Positions 1 to 29,845 of a stretch of DNA of 29,845 nucleotides are shown here, piece by piece. Position numbers and translations under genes: made by a program. Positions within the stretch are counted from its first letter, which is position 1, and the number at the start of each line of letters is the position of its first letter. This stretch comes from a virus: IMG/VR virus record IMGVR_UViG_3300028925_001894. One strand, written 5' to 3'. Under the pieces are notes generated by a model. The model had not been told where the DNA came from, did not search any database, and saw only the letters and a list, made by a program, of their open reading frames with translations.

Positions 1-99
1 TCTTGCATAATGCCAATGAACTATCTGGCTTTCTAATTCCATCATTTTCGTAATACCGAGAAAGCGGCTGGATTCCGAAGGCTCTTGATATATAGGCTT
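1..99. repeat. 99-bp exact direct repeat of the window end (29747..29845), i.e. a circular-closure overlap
   Basis: Bases 1-99 read identical to 29747-29845. The repeat lies inside an ORF, so the contig closes on itself with a unique length of 29746 bp. Confidence 0.9.
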
Positions 100-743: not shown

Positions 744-1093
744 CAGTTATTGCTCCCGTAAAAACTTAGCTCATCTTGCCCGCCAAACTCATCATTGTAA
801 TGGTCTTGGATTCTGTCTCTGAGGGATGTTTCTAGTTCAAGGTAGATAGCATCTTTAAGCATCAGGCTTGCCTTGTCTGAGCCTTGCAGATATAGAGTAT
901 CTAAATAAGCAAGTTGATTGACAGTGCCAGTAATTGCTGCTGGCAAACAGTCATCCATCCAAGTCGGCTTGGCTCGTAACCACTCATAACATAGAACATC
1001 TTTTTTTGCATCGCAAAGGTCGATAATATCACCGCACCACTTAGCATCTGAATTAACAAACTCTTCAATTAACCATTTAATTTCTTGCTTCAT
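743..1093 (-). CDS. hypothetical 116-aa protein, first gene behind promoter copy 2
   Basis: The ORF track gives 743..1126. The ATG at 1093 (MKQEIKW...) sits directly after the conserved leader ...CAGGGCTGGAC-ATG, and the longer start would lie inside that leader. Confidence 0.6.
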   Translation of the reverse strand: MKQEIKWLIEEFVNSDAKWCGDIIDLCDAKKDVLCYEWLRAKPTWMDDCLPAAITGTVNQLAYLDTLYLQGSDKASLMLKDAIYLELETSLRDRIQDHYNDEFGGQDELSFYGSNN

Positions 1094-1125
1094 GTCCAGC
1101 CCTGCTTGTTTTTGAATGTGCGCCA

Positions 1126-1154
1126 ACTTTGCCTGATGTTTACATTACTGTCAA
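1126..1154 (-). promoter_or_regulatory. sigma70-like promoter, copy 2 of a three-copy promoter/leader cassette
   Basis: On the minus strand: TTGACA, 17 bp (gtAATGTAAAcatCAGG), CAAAGT, then leader ACATTCAAAAACAAGCAGGGCT (1098..1120). It aligns colinearly with the copies at 22161 and 7416. The -35 overlaps the NinG stop codon. Confidence 0.6.
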
Positions 1155-1618
1155 CAGCTTATTTCACCAATTCGCCATTCCTCTACTTTAATCTGTTCTT
1201 TAAGGTCTCGAGCAAAAGCAATTACTTCTTCTCTGTCGTACCGCTTTGCCGTACGCCAAGCCATACGCTCCATCGCCTTAACGCGCCTTTCTCCATAAGT
1301 GTCAACCATCCACTGTCTGTAGCGTAAAACGTAGTGAGCCTGTTTCATACCCCAGCAATTGCAATGAGGGCACTGTGGGTTTATGTTGAATTCCGCTAGC
1401 TTGAAGATGGTTCTGTGGCGGGGTATAAAGTGGCCGCCTTGAAGGTTTTTATAGTGGTCTACCTTGTCGCAGGTAACGCACTGGGCGTAGCCGTTATCAT
1501 CTGCTGCCTTTAACCGGACTAGCCGCTGCAACAACTTAGCGGCTTTCTCCATTTCTTGGGCAACGGTTGGCTTCTTTTTAGGTTTACGTGCTGTAACCTT
1601 TTTAGGGTTTTTCGCCAT
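1151..1618 (-). CDS. ninG: NinG/Rap-like recombination endonuclease
   Basis: Basic N-terminus, then C-x2-C...GGHFIPR...NINPQCPHCN, the Cys/His pattern typical of lambda NinG family proteins. It sits in a nin-like neighbourhood with NinB. Confidence 0.7.
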   Translation of the reverse strand: MAKNPKKVTARKPKKKPTVAQEMEKAAKLLQRLVRLKAADDNGYAQCVTCDKVDHYKNLQGGHFIPRHRTIFKLAEFNINPQCPHCNCWGMKQAHYVLRYRQWMVDTYGERRVKAMERMAWRTAKRYDREEVIAFARDLKEQIKVEEWRIGEISC

Positions 1619-3895: not shown

Positions 3896-4295
3896 ATTTT
3901 AGCTCTCCTGTACCGTCATAGTAATAGCCGTTTTTAGCTAAATAATATTGCTTTTGTATTTCACGCATTTCACCATCTAAAAAACTAATGTCAGTCAAGC
4001 CCTTCTGTAACGACCTACCCCGCAACACTTCATCAGGATTAGATGCCGACTGGTTAGAAGGCTTAGTGTGCTGGTTAGCATAAGGTGATACACCCCCAGT
4101 TGTTTTCGTTCTTGCAAGCCAGCTATTGATAAACTTAGGCATACCAGCTTTAGTTTTACGCTTGGCTTTGTTTGTGTATAGCCACATCCGCATCGCCTCA
4201 ACTTCCTGCTCAACCATTGATTCGCCGTATGCACCAACTAAAGCCACATAAAGGTCATCAGGTATTACGTAATCTTCGCCTGTTTTTAGATGCAT
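3888..4295 (-). CDS. hypothetical protein (135 aa)
   Basis: The ATG at 4295 (MHLKTGEDY) has GGAG 7 nt upstream. The longer start at 4322 would overlap the upstream gene by 37 nt. Contains WLYTNKAKRKTKAGMPKFINSWLAR. I did not recognise a family securely. Confidence 0.5.
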   Translation of the reverse strand: MHLKTGEDYVIPDDLYVALVGAYGESMVEQEVEAMRMWLYTNKAKRKTKAGMPKFINSWLARTKTTGGVSPYANQHTKPSNQSASNPDEVLRGRSLQKGLTDISFLDGEMREIQKQYYLAKNGYYYDGTGELKYA

Positions 4296-4498
4296 GGTAG
4301 GCTCCACTTGGCTACTGTGCATGGCTCACCATGGCGGTTGGTCACTGTAACGCTTTCTTTTAGCAGGTGGTGGCCGTCTTTCTTTAGGTTATACACTACA
4401 GCAGAGATTCTAGTGATACCTAAATCATAGAAGGCATCTAAGCTAGTGATTGTTTGGTGTGTTTCTAAGTAATCTAAGACTCTTTGTTTCTGGCTCAT
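4286..4498 (-). CDS. small winged-helix DNA-binding protein (HTH_39-like)
   Basis: The ATG at 4498 (MSQKQRVLDYL...) is preceded by AAGGAG. The pattern VLDYLETHQ.ITSLDAFYDLGITRISAVVYNLKKDGH resembles the phage winged-HTH family. Confidence 0.55.
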   Translation of the reverse strand: MSQKQRVLDYLETHQTITSLDAFYDLGITRISAVVYNLKKDGHHLLKESVTVTNRHGEPCTVAKWSLPCI

Positions 4499-4828
4499 TT
4501 TGAACTCCTTTGGCTTGGCTACGCCGCGCCCGATTGTGTTTATGAAGGTTTTTATTAAATAATATTTAACAGGCATTTTTAACCCTTTCACTAGCAAGCT
4601 AGTAAAATTGGTGTAACAGAGGACTGTAAGTGACTCTGCGGTTTAATCGTGTTCGTTTCGAATATCCAATCTATCCACTAACAGCAACCGAGCTGTCTAT
4701 GGGGCTATGTCTGGAGGGTCAACCACGCTCTGAAGTTTAATTTAAGGATTTCTTCAGCCTCTAGCCCGAACACTTTTTACATTAAAACATACTTTTTACT
4801 GTTGTGTAACCAGCAATTGAACAATGTT

Positions 4829-5038
4829 TTATTTACCTAATCTAAAAAAGTCTAAAACATCAATCTCCAATACTTGGCATACATCCTGCATAGTGTGCAG
4901 CTTCATATTAAACTGATTTCTCCAGCGGATTACCTGCTGGGGTGAAGTGTTAGCTATACGGGCGAACTCAGCGTTGGAAATGCCTTTACTAGCTTGTGCG
5001 GCCTTTACTGCTTTACCTGCGTCTATATGCTTTGCCAT
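4829..5038 (-). CDS. Cro/XRE-type HTH regulator
   Basis: GISNAEFARIANTSPQQVIRWRN is a classic XRE helix-turn-helix. The protein is 69 aa. Confidence 0.7.
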   Translation of the reverse strand: MAKHIDAGKAVKAAQASKGISNAEFARIANTSPQQVIRWRNQFNMKLHTMQDVCQVLEIDVLDFFRLGK

Positions 5039-5097: not shown

Positions 5098-5116
5098 CCC
5101 CCCCTTTCGGGGGGGG
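5098..5116 (-). promoter_or_regulatory. G/C homopolymer hairpin just after the ssb stop codon
   Basis: The plus strand reads C7-TTTC-G8. The minus-strand RNA would be C8-GAAA-G7 (GNRA loop). Downstream is only weakly U-rich (CUGUAUUACU). Confidence 0.5.
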
Positions 5117-7185: not shown

Positions 7186-7199
7186 GCCCCCGTAGGGGC
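7186..7199 (-). promoter_or_regulatory. intercistronic C(UACG)G tetraloop hairpin
   Basis: On the minus strand: TAATGCAAAC-GCCCC-TACG-GGGGC-attcAGGAGGcaatATGCACACC. This is homologous to the junction at 22544..22590. Confidence 0.65.
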
Positions 7200-7206
7200 G
7201 TTTGCA

Positions 7207-7353
7207 TTAAGATTGTCTAGCGGCTTCTTTTTCTTCGAAGTATGTAAGGTCGCTTTCAAACTGCGCTCCAAATCTGGCGTGTTCCGCTGGGGTCATCTTT
7301 GCCAAAACTGCTTTGATTTCGTTAATTTTTTCTTCGTAAGTAGAAATGAACAT
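7207..7353 (-). CDS. hypothetical 48-aa protein, first gene of the early recombination operon
   Basis: The ATG at 7353 (MFISTYEEK...) follows the conserved leader. The track start at 7389 would lie inside the -10 element. Confidence 0.5.
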   Translation of the reverse strand: MFISTYEEKINEIKAVLAKMTPAEHARFGAQFESDLTYFEEKEAARQS

Positions 7354-7387
7354 GTGCGTAGCCCTGTTGTTTTTTGAATGTAGGTAC

Positions 7388-7416
7388 ATTATCTATTATG
7401 TTTACTTAAATGTAAA
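7388..7416 (-). promoter_or_regulatory. sigma70-like early promoter, copy 1 of the cassette
   Basis: On the minus strand: ATAGTGTT-TTTACA, 17 bp, GATAAT, then a 25-nt leader CCTACATTCAAAAAACAACAGGGCT (7360..7384) identical to 22193..22217. Confidence 0.7.
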
Positions 7417-7426
7417 CACTATAGGC

Positions 7427-7452
7427 AATAAAAAGCCCAAGTTAATGGGCTT
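7427..7452 (-). terminator. rho-independent terminator closing the late/lysis transcription unit
   Basis: On the minus strand: AAGCCCA-TTAACT-TGGGCTT followed by TTTTATT, located 58 nt after the endolysin stop. Confidence 0.7.
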
Positions 7453-22094: not shown

Positions 22095-22160
22095 ATATCA
22101 ACCTATATATGTACGATTGTTACCAAAAAATCTACATATGCATATACTTTTACGATAGTG

Positions 22161-22189
22161 TTGACATAAATGTAAATAACAGGCAAGAT
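22161..22189 (+). promoter_or_regulatory. sigma70-like promoter, copy 3 of the cassette, driving the plus-strand island
   Basis: ATAGTGTT-TTGACA, 17 bp (tAAATGTAAAtaaCAGG), CAAGAT, then the leader CCTACATTCAAAAAACAACAGGGCT (22193..22217) and the ATG at 22223. Confidence 0.7.
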
Positions 22190-22222
22190 GCTCCTACATT
22201 CAAAAAACAACAGGGCTTTCCC

Positions 22223-22546
22223 ATGAACATTATTCTTTCGCTACAGAGCAGAATCTCTAAAAGACTTGAAGAAACTAAGTCGCCATGCAAAACATATAAG
22301 ACAATAGAAGCCGCCGCAAAGGTAGCGGATAAGACAGCGCAGAAAGCAGCCGCTTACTTTGATGTTGAGTATCAATCTGGCAACAGAGAGCTTGATAGTG
22401 TAATGCCAGCTAGATACGTTATCTTTCATATTGCAAAGCTAGACAGATACGCAATAGGATTCGACCAGACTGAGATTATGAGCAGAAAAGATTTTGCTGG
22501 CGGCTATATGGGCATGTTGGCACACGAAGGTCACTACACTTACTAA
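22223..22546 (+). CDS. hypothetical 107-aa protein (island gene 1)
   Basis: The ATG at 22223 (MNIILSLQSR...) follows the leader. The track start at 22109 would begin upstream of the promoter. Confidence 0.55.
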   Translation: MNIILSLQSRISKRLEETKSPCKTYKTIEAAAKVADKTAQKAAAYFDVEYQSGNRELDSVMPARYVIFHIAKLDRYAIGFDQTEIMSRKDFAGGYMGMLAHEGHYTY

Positions 22547-22553
22547 TTCAAAT

Positions 22554-22567
22554 GCCCCTTCGGGGGC
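22554..22567 (+). promoter_or_regulatory. intercistronic C(UUCG)G tetraloop hairpin
   Basis: TAATTCAAAT-GCCCC-TTCG-GGGGC-tacccttGGAGGGGattATGCATACT. This is homologous to the junction at 7166..7209 on the minus strand. Confidence 0.65.
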
Positions 22568-22584
22568 TACCCTTGGAGGGGATT

Positions 22585-22923
22585 ATGCATACTTTAAAAC
22601 CAGACACGCAAACGCTAGACCAAGCCCACGACCATTACTGTGAAGATAATCACTTGGGTAGCTTCAAGATGCTAACTCAGCGCGAGTACGACGAAGTGCG
22701 TAGGCAAGAGAAAGCCAGAGGCTTAATTATATTTGAGGGCGATTATGTAACGCTGACAGGCGAACCAGAATGGCTTAAGGTTGTTGATATTATTATCGTA
22801 AACAGTAACCCCGACTGCAATATGCTGAAGCTGTCAGATGGCTATATAGTACCAGCACCAGTTGAGCGTTATGTAGACAAAGTGGCCGCTTATGAAAGCT
22901 TAAGAATTATGGAGGCTAATTAG
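22585..22923 (+). CDS. hypothetical 112-aa protein (island gene 2)
   Basis: The ATG at 22585 (MHTLKPD...) has GGAGGGG upstream. The longer start at 22552 would read through the hairpin. Confidence 0.55.
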   Translation: MHTLKPDTQTLDQAHDHYCEDNHLGSFKMLTQREYDEVRRQEKARGLIIFEGDYVTLTGEPEWLKVVDIIIVNSNPDCNMLKLSDGYIVPAPVERYVDKVAAYESLRIMEAN

Positions 22924-22924
22924 A

Positions 22925-23251
22925 ATGGCTGATTGTAAGTTTTGCGGTCAACACGTAGCTGATAACGATGAAGCGGGTCAGGATGATAACTGGAACCTTT
23001 TTCATCCTGAATGCAGCCCCACCATTTCCGTTAAGTGGGTGTCTGAGCTATTGCCTAATGGCTGGCTTCTTTATAAAACACACAACACTTTATTCTTCTG
23101 GCATAGAGCCGACTTGAGGGCGCTTGTAATGGATGCTATGCGGGCGCACGAAGTTGCTCACCTAAACCAAGAACAATGGTTAATGGAGTTTAATAGCCAA
23201 ATAGAACAAGCCTCTCATGTCTATAAAACCCCTATAGCCCAGCTTATTTAG
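22925..23251 (+). CDS. hypothetical 108-aa protein with an N-terminal CxxC...HPEC putative zinc site (island gene 3)
   Basis: The ORF starts 1 nt after the previous stop. MADCKFCGQH...FHPEC is the putative zinc site. Confidence 0.5.
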   Translation: MADCKFCGQHVADNDEAGQDDNWNLFHPECSPTISVKWVSELLPNGWLLYKTHNTLFFWHRADLRALVMDAMRAHEVAHLNQEQWLMEFNSQIEQASHVYKTPIAQLI

Positions 23252-23265
23252 TGGGCTTTTTTTTC
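23236..23265 (+). terminator. strong rho-independent terminator, possibly bidirectional
   Basis: AGCCCA-GCTTATTTAG-TGGGCT followed by T8 and a long pyrimidine tract. The stem overlaps the island gene 3 stop. The minus-strand version is followed by ATAGGGGTTTTAT. Confidence 0.7.
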
Positions 23266-23299
23266 TTCTTCTTTTTCTTTTTTCCGATACCGTATGCCA

Positions 23300-23497
23300 T
23301 CAATCTTCATCCTCAATTTCTTCTTCAGTTAATTCGTTTAACCGCAATTCAGCGGCTTCATATAGCCAGCCAAAGTTCTCTTTGTCTTGTGCGTCAGCAT
23401 CTTCAAAAAGCTCATCAAGCAGCTCAATCAAGTTGTCTGGTATTTGCTCTAACTTTACTAGCTCTAATCCCTTGTCCAGCTCTTTAGCCACGTTCAT
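23300..23497 (-). CDS. 65-aa extremely acidic protein
   Basis: The ATG at 23497 (MNVAKELDKG...) has GGAG upstream and overlaps the MuF gene end by 14 nt. By hand count it has 23 Asp/Glu and 5 Lys/Arg. Confidence 0.55.
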   Translation of the reverse strand: MNVAKELDKGLELVKLEQIPDNLIELLDELFEDADAQDKENFGWLYEAAELRLNELTEEEIEDED

Positions 23498-25496
23498 ATT
23501 CTCCTGTTTCAAAGTTAAAGCCTTTGTGTACTTTCAGGCGTCCTTTAGACTTTACCATGGCATCAAGTAAATCTTTAATGTCTGAATCTACTAAATCCTT
23601 CCTTCCCATGTTGTAGAGGGCAAAGTTTTCAGCAAACCATTCTTGGGGGTTCACTTCAGAATACTTTGTGGGGTAAAAAGACTTATTTGTGAATTTACTT
23701 TTTAGCCATTTCTCCATCGGCGGATTTCTAAGGTTCTGTCTCGTTGCGAAATACTGCTGGTGTACGTTATGCCCAAACTCATGGAATATCGTTGTCTTGC
23801 CAAGGTCTGAATTCTTAGCAAAGTAGTCACCTGAATTGAAAGGTCTTTTAGCCTTATCCCCGCCCCTTTTGTATGGATTGGCAATTTTTGGCTGTGAGGC
23901 GGCAACAGCGTCATCAAGTTTCTTTCTTGTAGCGGCTGCGGTTTTTATTGTTTTATTGTAAGCCTGAATTGAAGCGTCCAGCTCTGTGAATTTATTTACT
24001 TTGTCATTGCCAGAGGCCATTGCTTTCCATTCAGCTTTTGTAGCAAGGTAAGTCTCATATTGCGAAACAGATAAACCGTTAAGCTCTTGCAACTTAGCGT
24101 TTAGCTTTAGCTCATCAACAAGTAAGCTGGCCTCACTTGTGTAGGCTTTCTTTCCATATCCGTTATAGATAGACTTATTTAACCCCAGAACACCATCACC
24201 CATGTCAGCAACAGCTTTTTGCTTGGTTGGAACAATGGTTCTAATTCTTGGGACACCAAAAGCCTTAGCCATTTTATCAGTCTCAGCAATAATGGGCTGA
24301 ACAAGTGACAAGGTTTCAGAGGTAAAGTCTTGCAGGTTGTTGTTGCTTACTATTTTTTGGTTGTAGTCCTGATAACTAAGAGTCCTTTGGCGTGAAGCTC
24401 CATGATTAAACCTAGTAGCATAGTTGCCATCAGATGTAAGGACATATCCGGTACTGCTGCTCTGTGTTGAATTTGCAGAGCCTTTAAGGTTTGCTTGTTT
24501 TGTGCGCTCGTCAAAACTCTGCTGAATCTCTTTCTTCTTTCTGATCGGTGGCAATCCAACGGGTATTGATAGGCTTGGCTTGGGCGGCTCTACAATTTCA
24601 GGCTCTGAAACAATATCTTCTTCGTCAAAGACTGGTCGCCAGTGGTGACGGCAATTATAACCACCGCGAACAATAAACGGGTCGCCAGATGATTTACCCT
24701 GCCAGCTTCCAGCCCACGTTTCATCTATTTCTTCATCAGTGAACACCTGCCCAGAGTGTTGCCTACAGAATGGCCTGCTGTCCCTAATAACATCGCCATA
24801 ATACTTCCACTTGGTAGCACCTGTAGACTTACCGATAGCAGTGTTAATGCTGGCGTCAAACTGCATCAGGCTGTCTTGTGCCATCTGGGTACTGTAGCGT
24901 CTAAGGTTATTACCTGCCCTGTCTCTAGCGAACTTGGTGCGTAGCTGTTCAGCCGCTTCCTTTGACGCTGTAGCAGTGCCGTTGTTTACAATATCAACCA
25001 GTCGTTGAGCCTCTACATCATCGCTCTGGATATAAACGCCGTTGATTGTCTGCCGTAGGTTCTTAACAGTATCATTGAAAGACCTGCCAGTTAGCGTTGA
25101 TTGATAAACCTCATTTGCTAGAACATCAAGGTATTCATTCGCAACAGATTCAAAGCCCTGAAAGGATAAAGTCTGTAGCTGATTAATAACGCTAGGGTCT
25201 AGCTTTGTGAAGTCACCATACTGGCCGAGCATATCTTGCGCATCAGTAGCTACCCCGCCATAGCCGCGAACAACTGCGTCAACCTCTGACAAGTAAGCAT
25301 CATCCATAGCTTCCCTCAACTGAGGTCTTGCATTTATAGCCCATTCGGTATCAAACAGCTTCCCACCTTTAAGCGGAGCGTCAGCCATAACATCGGCTAC
25401 GCGCTCCTCTAAGGTCACTAGGGCATCGGATAGGCGTTGCTGGTGTGTATCAGCAAGCTTATCCAATATCTCATCGTACTGGTTATCTGTGGGCAT
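23484..25496 (-). CDS. MuF/SPP1 gp7-type minor head protein with a C-terminal HEFGH gluzincin-like extension
   Basis: aa 240-290 read RPFCRQHSGQVF...GGYNCRHHWRPV (MuF motif). A Pro-rich linker spans aa 297-323. HEFGH is at aa 572-576 and NPQEWFAENFALY at aa 616-628. Confidence 0.75.
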   Translation of the reverse strand: MPTDNQYDEILDKLADTHQQRLSDALVTLEERVADVMADAPLKGGKLFDTEWAINARPQLREAMDDAYLSEVDAVVRGYGGVATDAQDMLGQYGDFTKLDPSVINQLQTLSFQGFESVANEYLDVLANEVYQSTLTGRSFNDTVKNLRQTINGVYIQSDDVEAQRLVDIVNNGTATASKEAAEQLRTKFARDRAGNNLRRYSTQMAQDSLMQFDASINTAIGKSTGATKWKYYGDVIRDSRPFCRQHSGQVFTDEEIDETWAGSWQGKSSGDPFIVRGGYNCRHHWRPVFDEEDIVSEPEIVEPPKPSLSIPVGLPPIRKKKEIQQSFDERTKQANLKGSANSTQSSSTGYVLTSDGNYATRFNHGASRQRTLSYQDYNQKIVSNNNLQDFTSETLSLVQPIIAETDKMAKAFGVPRIRTIVPTKQKAVADMGDGVLGLNKSIYNGYGKKAYTSEASLLVDELKLNAKLQELNGLSVSQYETYLATKAEWKAMASGNDKVNKFTELDASIQAYNKTIKTAAATRKKLDDAVAASQPKIANPYKRGGDKAKRPFNSGDYFAKNSDLGKTTIFHEFGHNVHQQYFATRQNLRNPPMEKWLKSKFTNKSFYPTKYSEVNPQEWFAENFALYNMGRKDLVDSDIKDLLDAMVKSKGRLKVHKGFNFETGEYERG

Positions 25497-28727: not shown

Positions 28728-28910
28728 CTAAAACCATAACAGCAAAGCTATCAGGATTAATTCGAGTATAACGCACCCTCTGTTCATTGTCACAAAGTCC
28801 TTCTTGAGCCATGCAATAACAGCTTTTCGCTTACTAGGTGAAATAGCTTCATCCGCATACTTGTTAGCCTTATCAATCATCGCCTGCGCCTCTTCTTTAT
28901 TTACTGGCAT
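28728..28910 (-). CDS. 60-aa C-terminally anchored membrane protein
   Basis: The ATG at 28910 (MPVNKEEAQ...) overlaps the upstream gene end. A soluble N-terminal part is followed by the C-terminal TM CVILELILIALLLWF. Confidence 0.45.
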   Translation of the reverse strand: MPVNKEEAQAMIDKANKYADEAISPSKRKAVIAWLKKDFVTMNRGCVILELILIALLLWF

Positions 28911-29260
28911 CTGGTTGTCCCCCATGTATCGGTCTTGCAGCTTGTCCCGTTACTGTGGCGCGTGGTTCCCCAAGCATCGGTCTTTGAAGTTGAGCCGTCA
29001 TTGTATCGGGTAGTTCCCCAACTATCAGTTTTCCAGCTAGTCCCATCAGAGCCGCGTGTAGTTCCCCAAGTATCTGTTTTGTAGGTTGTTCCAGTACGTG
29101 AGTCTCTAGTGTTTCCCCAGCTGTCAGTAGTCATAGTGCCGCTAGTGCCGCCGCAGTTGTAGCGGGTATTGCCCCAGCTATCGGTTTTAGATGTGCAAGT
29201 AGCGTTAGCGCCTGCGGAAATAAAGCAAGCCGTTAATCCAATCAAAATAAATTTATTCAT
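28901..29260 (-). CDS. secreted repeat protein with a signal peptide and six TDxWGxTR repeats
   Basis: The ATG at 29260 has GGAG 9 nt upstream. The signal is MNKFILIGLTACFISAGANA. TD(S/T/A)WG(N/T)TR recurs at aa 26, 45, 62, 78, 94 and 110. The mature part has 4 Cys. Confidence 0.6.
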   Translation of the reverse strand: MNKFILIGLTACFISAGANATCTSKTDSWGNTRYNCGGTSGTMTTDSWGNTRDSRTGTTYKTDTWGTTRGSDGTSWKTDSWGTTRYNDGSTSKTDAWGTTRHSNGTSCKTDTWGTTRCQ

Positions 29261-29351
29261 CGTTGTCATCTCCAAAGTGTGAAGTTGCGTTTAAAACATA
29301 TAAGACATTAAGTAAGACTATTAAGCCAATTAAGCAGTAAGTGAAAATCAT
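29253..29351 (-). CDS. 32-aa membrane peptide (MIFTYCLIGLIVLLNVLYVLN...)
   Basis: Hand-translated small ORF with a hydrophobic core. It overlaps the start of the repeat-protein gene. Confidence 0.3.
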   Translation of the reverse strand: MIFTYCLIGLIVLLNVLYVLNATSHFGDDNDE

Positions 29352-29483: not shown

Positions 29484-29791
29484 TAAGAATCATCCTCGAA
29501 ATCAGATTCTTTAACAAAGATGCCGTCAATCATCTTACCCTTGCGGTCTTTTATGTCGTTATAGGCGTGTTCCATGCAATCGCTAAGGGACAGAGCATTC
29601 CTTTCTGCTATGTTAGTTAGAACCACTATAATGTCGCCAATGTCATCAATTACAGAGTTCCCTTGCTTTATGCTTGCCGATAGCTCTGCAACCTCTTCAA
29701 CAAGTTTTTTAAATTGCTGCTTATCTGTCGAGCCTTCAATCAAATTTCTTGCATAATGCCAATGAACTATCTGGCTTTCTAATTCCATCAT
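29483..29791 (-). CDS. mazG: MazG-like nucleoside triphosphate pyrophosphohydrolase, possibly with an 84-aa N-terminal extension
   Basis: KLVEEVAELSASI...DDIGDIIVVLTNIAERNALSL..CMEHAYNDIKDRKGKMIDGIFVKE matches the phage MazG pattern. The frame stays open upstream through 29845 and, by circularity, to the ATG at 297. Confidence 0.8.
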   Translation of the reverse strand: MMELESQIVHWHYARNLIEGSTDKQQFKKLVEEVAELSASIKQGNSVIDDIGDIIVVLTNIAERNALSLSDCMEHAYNDIKDRKGKMIDGIFVKESDFEDDS

Positions 29792-29845
29792 TTTCGTAAT
29801 ACCGAGAAAGCGGCTGGATTCCGAAGGCTCTTGATATATAGGCTT
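29747..29845. repeat. second copy of the 99-bp terminal overlap
   Basis: Identical to 1..99. Confidence 0.9.

What the first reader, a model, noticed from the sequence alone, without database searches (positions are those of the whole stretch)
22155..22222. Three-copy promoter plus leader cassette defining a phage early regulon
Plus strand 22155..22225 reads ATAGTGTTGACAtaaatgtaaataacaggCAAGATgctCCTACATTCAAAAAACAACAGGGCTttcccATG. The minus-strand copy at 7422..7351 has the same length, -35/-10 spacing of 17, and an identical 25-nt block CCTACATTCAAAAAACAACAGGGCT running from just after the -10 to the SD region. A third, more diverged copy is at 1156..1091. All three precede unrelated first genes. 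Conservation continues well beyond what RNA polymerase needs, through the spacer word AATGTAAA/AAGTAAA and the whole 5' leader. That points to a shared operator or a leader-RNA element for translational or antisense control. No regulator was assigned; candidates are the Cro-like protein (4829..5038), the wHTH protein (4286..4498) and the HTH-phosphoesterase.
Basis: seen in the sequence. Interest (0 to 1): 0.7.

Follow-up and report, generated by a model that had tools for sequence, protein, structure and literature searches.

The report
Phage promoter-leader cassettes with cargo slots
Three near-identical promoter-plus-leader sequences in this ~29.7-kb phage genome are real and conserved start signals for its three operons, and in related phages the small gene just behind each one is swapped freely, so they behave like plug-in sockets for unknown genes.

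Summary
Three cassettes (A + 22155-22225, B - 7422-7351, C - 1156-1091) are the two longest inverted repeats of the window, and A and B share an exact 25-mer (0 expected by chance).

The window is a complete circular siphovirus-like genome. It has no RNA polymerase or sigma gene among about 50 ORFs scanned.

Related IMG/VR contigs keep the cassette at the same three positions:
- after the lysis-module terminator;
- overlapping the NinG stop codon;
- on the opposite strand, next to the scaffold gene.

Invariant parts are the -35, a GT in the spacer, A2 and T6 of the -10, and ACATTCAAAAAA at the predicted +1. The 5' half of the leader is more conserved than the -10, and a variant of it occurs across a wider phage group. 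The leader RNA is unstructured.

New here:
- The gene behind each cassette is hypervariable (16 families among 49 junctions), and some families occur at two or three positions.
- These cargo genes end in a GC hairpin in 35 of 36 cases, against 0 of 12 for the core gene.
- Homology between copies in different slots runs from the leader to that hairpin.

I read this as sigma-70 promoters with a standard 5'UTR that also serve as recombination boundaries. That is a new variant of T4 PeSL or moron logic. A shared operator is plausible; "early regulon" is unproven.

The parts
22155..22225 (+). Cassette A. -35 TTGACA 22161-22166; palindrome about 22158-22179; -10 CAAGAT 22184-22189; predicted +1 at A22196; leader core ACATTCAAAAAACAA 22196-22210; SD-like AGGG 22212-22215; ATG 22223.
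   Evidence: the +1 is inferred from the geometry
22223..22546 (+). Slot A cargo gene (107 aa, phrog_3633, unknown function). Relatives carry one of six other gene families here.
22554..22567 (+). 3' boundary hairpin of the A cargo, GCCCC-UUCG-GGGGC. It is followed by CCCTTGGAGGGGATT and the ATG (22585) of the conserved second gene.
7433..7452 (-). Intrinsic terminator (AAGCCCATTAACTTGGGCTTTTTATT) ending the lysis module, immediately upstream of cassette B. Conserved in relatives.
7351..7422 (-). Cassette B. -35 TTTACA 7416-7411; -10 GATAAT 7393-7388; predicted +1 at A7381; the same 25-mer at 7384-7360; ATG 7353.
7207..7353 (-). Slot B cargo gene (48 aa, no family match). Relatives carry one of seven other gene families here.
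7186..7199 (-). 3' boundary hairpin of the B cargo, GCCCC-UACG-GGGGC. It is followed by ATTCAGGAGGCAAT and the ATG (7171) of the conserved second gene (79 aa).
1091..1156 (-). Cassette C. -35 TTGACA 1154-1149, which contains the NinG stop codon TGA 1153-1151; -10 CAAAGT 1131-1126; predicted +1 at A1119; leader ACATTCAAAAACAAGCAGGGCT; ATG 1093. In this phage the slot is empty: the core gene (116 aa, 1093-743) follows directly.
4829..5038 (-). Cro/C1-type HTH protein (69 aa), the best candidate to bind the palindrome. Its HTH region is conserved in relatives.
   Evidence: binding is inferred and was not tested

Best explanation
The three cassettes are host-RNA-polymerase (sigma-70-type) promoters fused to a standard, unstructured, G-poor 5' leader. 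Each heads one of the phage's three recognisable transcription units:
- B leads the recombination/early genes.
- C leads small genes, MazG and then packaging.
- A leads a short opposite-strand operon set inside the head module.

Transcription is predicted to start at the A of ACATTC. The first ~13 nt of the mRNA (ACAUUCAAAAAAC) are under strong selection across the family. The most likely reason is that they give any gene placed behind them an open ribosome-loading leader, possibly also an efficient promoter-escape sequence.

The same conserved stretch is the 5' boundary of a promoter-proximal cargo slot. A small gene of unknown function, followed by a GC-rich tetraloop hairpin, sits between the leader and the conserved operon. 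Recombination within these conserved boundaries moves such genes between phages and among the three slots.

In this clade a 20-22-bp palindrome over the -35 and spacer probably also lets one dimeric repressor, possibly the Cro-like protein, turn all three promoters down together.

Shown here: the sequence conservation, the geometry, the slot variability and the junction positions. Inferred: the start sites, the leader's function, the recombination mechanism and the repressor.
For: Promoter:
- -35 GTTKAC, a 17-nt spacer and -10 A2/T6 are invariant in 46 distinct cassettes.
- TTGACA always goes with a 3-of-6 -10, and TTTACA with a 5-of-6 -10.
- No phage RNA polymerase or sigma was found in about 50 ORFs.

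Position:
- Seven contigs including the window carry copies at all three homologous positions.

Leader:
- ACATTCAAAAAA is invariant, while the spacer and -10 vary.
- Of 80 loci found through the endolysin protein alone, 68 have TTKACN-N29-[ATC]CA[AT]T[CTA]AA. I estimate about 0.3 by chance.
- More distant relatives keep the same -35/17/-10/6 geometry with ACATTCAATAAA or TCAATCAATAAA.
- The leader is unpaired in the minimum-energy fold of all three mRNAs.
- A fourth promoter that drives a structured non-coding RNA lacks the leader. This links the leader to translated mRNAs.

Cargo slot:
- 16 first-gene families occur among 49 distinct junctions, followed by conserved second genes.
- Four families occur at two or three positions.
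- 35 of 36 cargo genes are followed by the hairpin, against 0 of 12 core first genes.
- Alignments of the same cargo in different slots show homology starting at ACATTC and ending at the hairpin. One pair is about 98% identical inside the gene while its promoter alleles are unrelated.

Palindrome.
Against: - There are no transcript 5' ends, no host and no cultured member. Pelagiphage HTVC111P lacks the motif.
- A need for an 'open' leader does not by itself explain why the exact word ACATTC is fixed, so a specific binding partner may exist.
- The -10 hexamers of A and C are weak (3 of 6), so these promoters may need an activator.
- Part of the relatives set was retrieved with patterns that contain the leader. 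The protein-anchored sets reduce this bias but are smaller at positions A and C.
- The promoter alleles are few and phylogenetically linked, so the -35/-10 compensation statistic overstates independence.
- An empty slot has only the 5' homology arm, so insertion needs a further step that I could not show.
Confidence: 0.6

Rival explanations
1. The extra conservation is chiefly an operator. A dimeric phage repressor, the Cro-like HTH (4829-5038) or the wHTH protein, binds the palindrome over the -35 and spacer, and perhaps the ACATT half-site repeated at +1. It shuts down all three promoters together. This could hold alongside the main explanation.
For: - The palindrome TGTTKACA-N4-TGTAAACA is present in all three copies; 9 hits at <=2 mismatches against 1.9 expected.
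- Its centre is fixed 2 nt after the -35. It averages 6.9 of 10 pairs in 48 distinct sequences, against a background of 2.8 +/- 1.0.
- The GT of the right half-site is invariant inside an otherwise variable spacer.
- The Cro-like gene and its HTH region are conserved in relatives.
- ACATT occurs both in the left half-site and at +1, 32 bp apart (read).
Against: - The palindrome is absent in the wider family, which still keeps the leader. It therefore cannot explain the leader's conservation.
- The leader core is not palindromic.
- Allele 3 at position A (TTTACATTAAGGTTAAT) has a degraded right half-site.
- No binding data exist.
- No CI-type repressor or integrase was found.
Confidence: 0.4
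2. The leader is a specific RNA target. A phage or host RNA-binding protein, or a small RNA, recognises ACAUUCAAAAAAC on all three mRNAs and controls their translation or stability together.
For: - The exact word, not merely the base composition, is fixed in 46 distinct cassettes.
- It is retained in variant form across a wider family.
- A leader-like CCATTCAAAGAAAC lies well inside a long untranslated region, about 45 nt before the wHTH start codon, in relatives. This hints at a function in RNA rather than at the DNA start site.
- A-rich (ARN)n runs are typical Hfq and S1 ligands (general knowledge).
Against: - No conserved structure.
- No complementary sequence elsewhere in the genome.
- No Rfam family.
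- No candidate RNA-binding protein was identified.
- I found no obvious complementarity to the leader in the exposed loops of the newly seen structured RNA (read by eye; not computed).
Confidence: 0.2
3. The cassette is a Q-type antiterminator loading site like lambda pR'-qut. It would have a factor-binding element between the -35 and -10 and a -10-like pause signal (TACATT) at -1 to +5. Polymerase would then be modified to read through the long operons.
For: - Copy C sits directly after ninG, where lambdoid phages place Q and pR' (general knowledge).
- TACATT in copies A and B matches TATAAT at 4 of 6 positions, including A2 and T6.
- Conservation covers both the spacer and the initial transcribed region.
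- The operons are long, and there is no terminator at the convergent junction 23484/23487.
Against: - No Q-like gene was detected.
- The -10-like hexamer is not conserved: relatives have CACATT, TCATTC or TCAATC.
- All three promoters carry the element, including the early one.
Confidence: 0.05
4. The similarity is only a trace of recent duplication or gene conversion between promoters, with no function beyond ordinary promoter activity.
For: - The 3' part of the 25-mer (CAACAGGGCT) is shared by A and B in the window. In relatives it differs at the orthologous A position, for example CAACAAGGGTTAC.
- This suggests an exchange between the A and B leaders within this lineage.
Against: - The 5' leader core and the -35 block are conserved in dozens of diverged contigs at all three positions.
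- They are also conserved in protein-anchored, pattern-independent samples whose flanking proteins are only 65-75% identical.
Confidence: 0.05

Closest known systems
PeSL (promoter-early stem-loop) cassettes of T4-type phages (Arbiol et al. 2010, PMC2839356; Comeau et al. 2014, PMC4122927)
   Same: - Repeated composite regulatory motifs built on a strong sigma-70-like promoter, ending in an SD and a start codon.
- They sit just upstream of genes of unknown function in variable regions.
- They are associated with GC-rich stem-loops.
- They serve as homology patches for insertion, deletion and replacement of the flanked genes (searches compared).
   Different: - Three copies per 30-kb siphovirus-like genome instead of about 50 per T4-like genome.
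- The copies occupy fixed, syntenic operon heads rather than hyperplastic regions.
- The stem-loop is not inside or next to the promoter. It lies at the 3' end of the cargo gene and lacks a U tract; only copy B has a true terminator upstream.
- The invariant element here is the transcribed leader, which is not a defined PeSL component.
- No mini-circle evidence.
Morons of lambdoid phages (promoter-gene-terminator insertions; recalled from general knowledge, Juhala et al. 2000)
   Same: Single extra genes of unknown function inserted between conserved genes. They are bounded by regulatory sequences and present or absent among close relatives. Slot C is empty in the window and occupied in relatives.
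   Different: The cargo has no promoter of its own. It is placed directly behind a resident operon promoter and ends in a hairpin without a U tract. The same gene is found in three alternative sockets.
Lambda-type OL/OR operator sets bound by Cro/CI
   Same: Several promoters in one genome share a roughly 18-22-bp imperfect palindrome overlapping the -35, and the genome encodes a small Cro/C1-type HTH protein.
   Different: There is one site per promoter rather than tripartite operators. No divergent repressor gene, CI or integrase was found. Binding is untested. The palindrome is specific to this clade, whereas the leader is family-wide.
Conserved transcribed regions of strong coliphage early promoters (T5 PN25 'downstream region') and intercistronic C(UUCG)G hairpins of T4 (both recalled from memory, not checked here)
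   Same: Information downstream of +1 contributes to the conserved promoter signature. Very stable UUCG or GNRA tetraloop hairpins separate cistrons without terminating.
   Different: Here the +1 to +13 word is more conserved than the -10 and is tied to mRNAs only. Its role in promoter escape is untested.
Integron gene-cassette platforms (Pc promoter, attI/attC)
   Same: A resident promoter is followed by exchangeable promoterless single-gene cassettes, each ending in a hairpin-forming element.
   Different: No integrase was detected. The boundaries look like short homology arms used by general recombination (Erf, exonuclease, SSB, NinB and NinG are encoded). There is one cassette per slot in nearly all cases.

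Membership tests
Sigma-70-type bacterial promoter | -35 hexamer close to TTGACA | tested here: met
   TTGACA (A, C) and TTTACA (B). GTTKAC is invariant in 46 distinct cassettes.
Sigma-70-type bacterial promoter | Spacer of 16-18 bp and a -10 hexamer with A at position 2 and T at position 6 | tested here: met
   The spacer is 17 bp in all copies. The -10 hexamers are CAAGAT, GATAAT and CAAAGT. A2 and T6 are invariant in relatives, but A and C match the consensus at only 3 of 6 positions.
Sigma-70-type bacterial promoter | Transcription actually starts 6-8 nt after the -10 | not testable with these tools
   The start sites at 22196, 7381 and 1119 are predicted from geometry only.
PeSL (T4-type promoter-early stem-loop) | Sigma-70-like early promoter with an AT-rich upstream region, ending in the SD and start codon of an ORFan | tested here: met
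   compared with the definition read.
PeSL (T4-type promoter-early stem-loop) | A stem-loop terminator or attenuator is an integral part of the motif, within or beside the promoter | tested here: not met
   Only B has an adjacent upstream terminator. A and C have none. The conserved hairpin lies after the cargo gene.
PeSL (T4-type promoter-early stem-loop) | Many copies clustered in hyperplastic regions of T4-like myovirus genomes | tested here: not met
   Three copies in a 29.7-kb genome with tape-measure and major-tail genes.
PeSL (T4-type promoter-early stem-loop) | Indel and replacement breakpoints between relatives coincide with the motif | tested here: met
Lambda-like operator/Cro regulon | Shared palindromic site overlapping the core promoter elements at several promoters | tested here: met
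   (this clade only).
Lambda-like operator/Cro regulon | A phage-encoded HTH protein binds those sites | not testable with these tools
   Candidates exist (HTH_26 at 4829-5038; HTH_39 at 4292-4498).
Structured cis-regulatory leader RNA (riboswitch, put/nut-type antitermination RNA) | Conserved secondary structure in the leader | tested here: not met
   The leader is unpaired in the minimum-energy folds, with z-scores of -0.8 to +1.1. No Rfam hit.
Single-subunit phage RNA polymerase promoter (T7-like) | The phage encodes its own RNA polymerase | tested here: not met
   No RNA polymerase or sigma family appeared in the PHROGs or Pfam scans of the ORFs. The 1006-aa ORF is a tail fibre J-like protein.
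Integron | Tyrosine-recombinase integrase next to the platform | tested here: not met
   No integrase among the scanned ORFs.

The most novel reading that the evidence does not exclude
The invariant 13-nt mRNA start (ACAUUCAAAAAAC) is the recognition site of a dedicated trans-acting factor. This could be a host or phage RNA-binding protein, or the newly seen 127-nt structured RNA encoded in the early operon. The factor would control expression of the first gene of every operon together. With the 3' hairpin, the leader would define an integron-like, recombinase-independent platform through which a widespread clade of uncultured aquatic phages trades promoterless counter-defence or host-takeover genes among three sockets.
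Probability: 0.15. Interest if true: 0.75.

Novelty: new variant of a known kind. Interest (0 to 1): 0.55.

Why it matters
It gives a compact transcription map, with three promoters and one strong terminator, for a large uncultured phage group distantly related to HTVC111P-type pelagiphages.

It identifies a transcribed 13-nt word that is more conserved than the -10 hexamer. That is unusual and can be tested directly with reporters.

It also shows that small genes of unknown function are expressed from three promoter-proximal sockets and exchanged among them through conserved boundaries. This is where one would look for anti-defence or host-takeover genes, and it extends PeSL-type modular shuffling from large T4-like myoviruses to small siphovirus-like genomes.

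The leader-plus-hairpin frame is a ready-made search key for harvesting such cargo genes from metagenomes.

Tried and rejected
- Coding explanation. The conserved block is in three different frames relative to the downstream ATGs, so it is not a shared N-terminal extension or upstream ORF.
- Host or prophage origin. A scan of 185,579 species genomes with the 22-mer gave only three hits, in unrelated taxa (Oliverpabstia, Methanoregula, Mucilaginibacter). These match the leader word alone with no promoter part, so I treat them as chance.
- Known phages. No megablast match in INPHARED. The closest isolates share only structural proteins (TerL about 52%, MCP about 46%). HTVC111P and DSL-LC06 lack the cassette.
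- Sigma-54 reading of CAGGCAC...GCC. The spacing is wrong and it is absent from other alleles.
- IHF and CsrA consensus matches in the leader. The key positions mismatch or are not conserved in relatives.
- Tandem second promoter (TGTAAA-N18-TACATT). The -35 is poor and the -10-like hexamer is not conserved.
- Long alternative hairpin that would sequester the second-gene SD in slot A. It is not compatible with the GAAA-loop allele in relatives.
- Fourth cassette copy. The weak palindrome hit at 4794-4811 proved to be a different promoter without the leader, driving a structured RNA.
- Function of cargo proteins. No Pfam hits, and only unknown-function PHROGs.

Full report
**1. The observation**

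- The 25-mer CCTACATTCAAAAAACAACAGGGCT occurs exactly twice, at 22193-22217 (+) and 7384-7360 (-). None of 100 dinucleotide-preserving shuffles gave a match with up to three mismatches.
- The A/B pair (63 nt, 78%) and the A/C pair (59 nt, 76%) are the two longest inverted repeats in the window.
- Copy C differs from A and B at three positions of the 22-nt leader without any gap.
- All three copies share the same geometry: -35 hexamer, 17-nt spacer, -10 hexamer, 6 nt, then ACATTC.
- With the usual spacing, transcription would start at A22196, A7381 and A1119. This is an inference.
- The conserved block lies in a different reading frame relative to each downstream ATG, so it is not coding.
- The three first proteins (107, 48 and 116 aa) are unrelated.
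- Two HMMs, one built from close cassettes and one from the wider family, find only these three copies in the window.
- Small corrections: B is 1 nt longer than A between the SD and the ATG, and the -10 hexamers of A and C are weak (CAAGAT, CAAAGT).

**2. Context**

Bases 1-99 equal 29747-29845, so the window is a circularly assembled genome of about 29,746 bp, with about 44% GC.

The gene order on the minus strand is as follows.

| Start signal | Genes that follow |
|---|---|
| Cassette C | 116-aa gene, three small genes, a MazG-like fusion that spans the window ends, a lipoprotein-like repeat protein, TerS, TerL, portal, a 670-aa protein |
| Cassette A (plus strand, 22223-23487) | short opposite-strand operon |
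| (no start signal recognised) | scaffold, major capsid, tail genes (tape measure, J-like fibre), holin, endolysin, then a strong terminator at 7452-7433 |
| Cassette B | 48-aa gene, 79-aa gene, 63-aa gene, Erf, exonuclease, SSB, Cro/C1-type HTH, a 330-nt non-coding gap, wHTH (HTH_39), NinB, metallophosphoesterase, NinG |

The TGA stop codon of NinG lies inside the -35 hexamer of cassette C.

No RNA polymerase, sigma factor, integrase or CI-type repressor was detected, so the phage must use host polymerase. The closest isolates are the HTVC111P-type pelagiphages and phage DSL-LC06. They share only structural proteins (about 52% TerL, about 46% capsid) and do not carry the cassette. There is no nucleotide match to any deposited phage.

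**3. Relatives**

- A scan of IMG/VR with the 22-nt leader gave 7 loci.
- A looser pattern (TGTTKACA-N29-ACATTCAAAAA) gave 54 loci.
- Protein-anchored searches, which do not depend on the motif, used NinG, the endolysin and the scaffold protein. They gave 49, 80 and 80 loci.
- nhmmer found 92 cassette copies followed by an ATG. They comprise 46 distinct cassette sequences and 49 distinct cassette-gene junctions.
- Relatives keep the three homologous positions: after the lysis terminator (B), over the NinG stop codon (C), and on the opposite strand next to the scaffold gene (A). Seven contigs including the window show all three.
- The three hits in bacterial and archaeal genomes match the leader word only and are chance. 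No host or prophage copy was found.

**4. What is conserved**

Invariant or nearly invariant positions are GTTKAC (-35), a GT six nucleotides into the spacer, A2 and T6 of the -10, and A[CT]ATTCAAAAAA from +1. The rest of the spacer, the other -10 positions, the discriminator and the 3' half of the leader all vary.

Promoter alleles fall into a few types tied to position:

- TTGACA always comes with a -10 matching 3 of 6.
- TTTACA always comes with a -10 matching 5 of 6 (GATAAT, TTTAAT).

This looks like compensation towards a set promoter strength, although the alleles are few and phylogenetically linked.

In the endolysin-anchored sample, 68 of 80 loci have TTKACN-N29-[ATC]CA[AT]T[CTA]AA just after the terminator. 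My estimate of the chance expectation is about 0.3 loci. In relatives whose endolysin is only 65-75% identical, the spacers are unrelated. The geometry is the same, and the transcript still begins ACATTCAATAAA or TCAATCAATAAA, followed by an A-rich run and AAGG/AGGG.

The 5' leader core is therefore under family-wide selection. It is not just a product of recent conversion.

By contrast, the last 10 nt of the window's 25-mer (CAACAGGGCT) follow the downstream gene in relatives. At the orthologous A position they read CAACAAGGGTTAC and similar. The A/B identity over that part in this genome therefore looks like a local exchange between the two leaders.

**5. The leader as RNA**

- Folding +1 to +60 of each mRNA leaves the first 17 or more nucleotides unpaired. 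The energies are no better than shuffles (z = -0.8, -0.5 and +1.1).
- Rfam has no match.
- The 15-mer core has no further copy or complement in the genome.
- The first 17 nt of the leader contain no G and are A/C-rich. It ends in a weak SD (AGGG) 6-8 nt before the ATG.

A structured element or a phage-encoded antisense partner is therefore unlikely. An open ribosome-loading leader is the simplest reading. The fixed word ACATTC leaves room for a specific binding partner.

A fourth sigma-70-like promoter in the Cro/wHTH gap drives a structured non-coding RNA and lacks this leader (section 9). That fits a role for the leader in translated messages rather than in promoter function as such.

**6. 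The palindrome**

All three copies contain TGTTKACA-N4-TGTAAACA.

- The pattern gives 9 hits at up to 2 mismatches against 1.9 expected. Six of them are the three cassettes read on both strands.
- Across 48 distinct sequences of this clade, dyad symmetry peaks sharply 2 nt after the -35: 6.9 of 10 pairs against a background of 2.8 +/- 1.0.
- The peak is absent in the wider family.

This is what an operator for a dimeric HTH protein looks like. The Cro/C1-type protein is conserved in relatives, including its HTH region.

**7. The cargo slots (new)**

Comparing gene order behind each cassette gives this picture:

- At A, the first gene belongs to one of seven families and is followed by a conserved gene.
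- At B, the first gene belongs to one of eight families, followed by conserved genes and Erf.
- At C, either the conserved 116-aa gene follows directly, as in the window (an empty slot), or one extra gene from five families precedes it.
- In all, there are 16 first-gene families among 49 distinct junctions.
- Four families occur at two or three of the positions.

Each cargo gene ends with a GC-rich hairpin carrying a stable tetraloop (GCCCC-UUCG-GGGGC, GCCCCC-GAAA-GGGGGC and variants) and no U tract. A slot-specific SD follows. This hairpin is present after 35 of 36 cargo genes and after 0 of 12 core first genes.

In the window the hairpins are at 22554-22567 (slot A) and 7199-7186 (slot B).

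Alignments of the same cargo in different slots show homology beginning at ACATTC and ending with the hairpin. One family is about 98% identical between a B slot and an A slot whose promoter alleles are unrelated.

The movable unit is therefore leader 3' half + ORF + hairpin, and the conserved leader and hairpin are where the exchanges happen. The phage encodes Erf, an exonuclease, SSB, NinB and NinG, which could carry out recombination on short homologies. This is an inference.

The cargo proteins have no Pfam family and only unknown-function PHROGs.

**8. Is it an early regulon?**

- B clearly heads early-type genes.
- C is followed, with no evident terminator, by packaging genes.
- B transcripts would run straight into C.
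- The only strong minus-strand terminator is the one upstream of B.
- The A operon converges on the 670-aa gene, with overlapping ends and no terminator.
- I found no separate late promoter.

The three copies may be the phage's whole recognisable promoter set rather than an early subset. The timing remains open.

**9. Comparison with known systems**

The nearest analogue is the PeSL of T4-type phages. PeSLs are repeated sigma-70 promoter/stem-loop cassettes placed before ORFans, and they mediate modular shuffling (PMC2839356 and PMC4122927).

- Shared features: the promoter, the ORFan association and breakpoints at the motif.
- Not shared: the integral stem-loop, the high copy number, the hyperplastic-region setting and the T4-like host genome.

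So this works like a PeSL but is not a member of that family.

It also resembles morons and, formally, integron cassettes, but the cargo has no promoter of its own and there is no integrase. The palindrome plus the Cro-like gene resembles lambda-type operators.

I rate it a new variant of a known kind.

**10. Verdict**

- The finding is real and functional-looking, and it is richer than described.
- Its most unusual feature is a transcribed 13-nt word that is more conserved than the -10 hexamer. Together with a hairpin, it frames exchangeable first-gene slots.
- The mechanism of the leader is not settled.
- Interest is 0.55.

Noticed in passing
window 4645-4775 (-), with a promoter-like site at 4810-4781: A conserved structured RNA of about 127 nt lies between the Cro-like and wHTH genes. 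It begins exactly at the predicted +1 (G4773) of a fourth sigma-70-like promoter: GTTACA, 18 nt, TTTAAT in the window; GTGTTTACA-N17-AATACT in relatives. A covariance model found 18 copies (12 distinct) in relatives. Of the cells, 96.7% form pairs, against about 40% when partners are slid. Fifteen of 34 pairs have compensatory double changes, and 0 of 500 shuffles reach this. There is no Rfam, tRNA or tmRNA match. One hairpin loop shows an invariant anti-SD-like CCCUC. It could be an sRNA or the 5'UTR of the wHTH gene.
   Followed up: partly
window 1-99 and 29747-29845: The two ends are identical over 99 nt, so the window is a circularly closed assembly of about 29,746 bp. A 186-aa MazG-like ORF (start 297, end 29483) spans the junction.
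   Followed up: yes
window 5098-5115 (-): A third GC hairpin (CCCCCCC-GAAA-GGGGGGG) sits right after the SSB gene and before the Cro-like gene. It is conserved in relatives. Between Erf and the Cro-like gene the window and L049 carry an exonuclease gene that most relatives lack, so such hairpins may mark other mosaic junctions.
   Followed up: partly
window 28901-29269 (-), repeats at 28909-29088: A 122-aa ORF has a signal- or lipoprotein-like N-terminus (MTTMNKFILIGLTACFISAGANATC...) and at least three 48-nt (16-aa) tandem repeats. It lies between MazG and TerS and may be a moron or exclusion protein.
   Followed up: no
window 23484-23487: The plus-strand A operon and the minus-strand 670-aa gene converge. 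Their ends overlap by 4 nt, and there is no hairpin or terminator within 300 nt. Transcription from A and late minus-strand transcription should collide, which may act as a timing device.
   Followed up: partly
window 1149-1154: The stop codon TGA of NinG is embedded in the -35 hexamer TTGACA of cassette C. No terminator can therefore separate the B and C units. The overlap is conserved in relatives.
   Followed up: yes
L001, L007, L033, L046 (relatives): about 45 nt upstream of the wHTH start codon; window about 4545-4532: A leader-like word (AACATTCAAAAAC, CCATTCAAAGAAAC) occurs inside the long untranslated region before the wHTH gene. It is followed by a GCGC-TTTA-GCGC hairpin and GGAG, and I could recognise no promoter at the right distance. 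In the window it has diverged to ACCTTCATAAACAC.
   Followed up: no
L059 (IMGVR_UViG_3300025860_000786): In this relative the genes normally found in the opposite-strand A operon (cargo family 31 plus the conserved second gene) follow NinG directly at position C. This suggests that a whole operon head moved between cassettes.
   Followed up: no
window 23484-25496 (-): The 670-aa protein after the portal has weak C-terminal matches to zinc metallopeptidase and anthrax lethal-factor-like domains (E = 3e-4 and 3e-3, both below the Pfam cut-offs) and no PHROG match.
   Followed up: no
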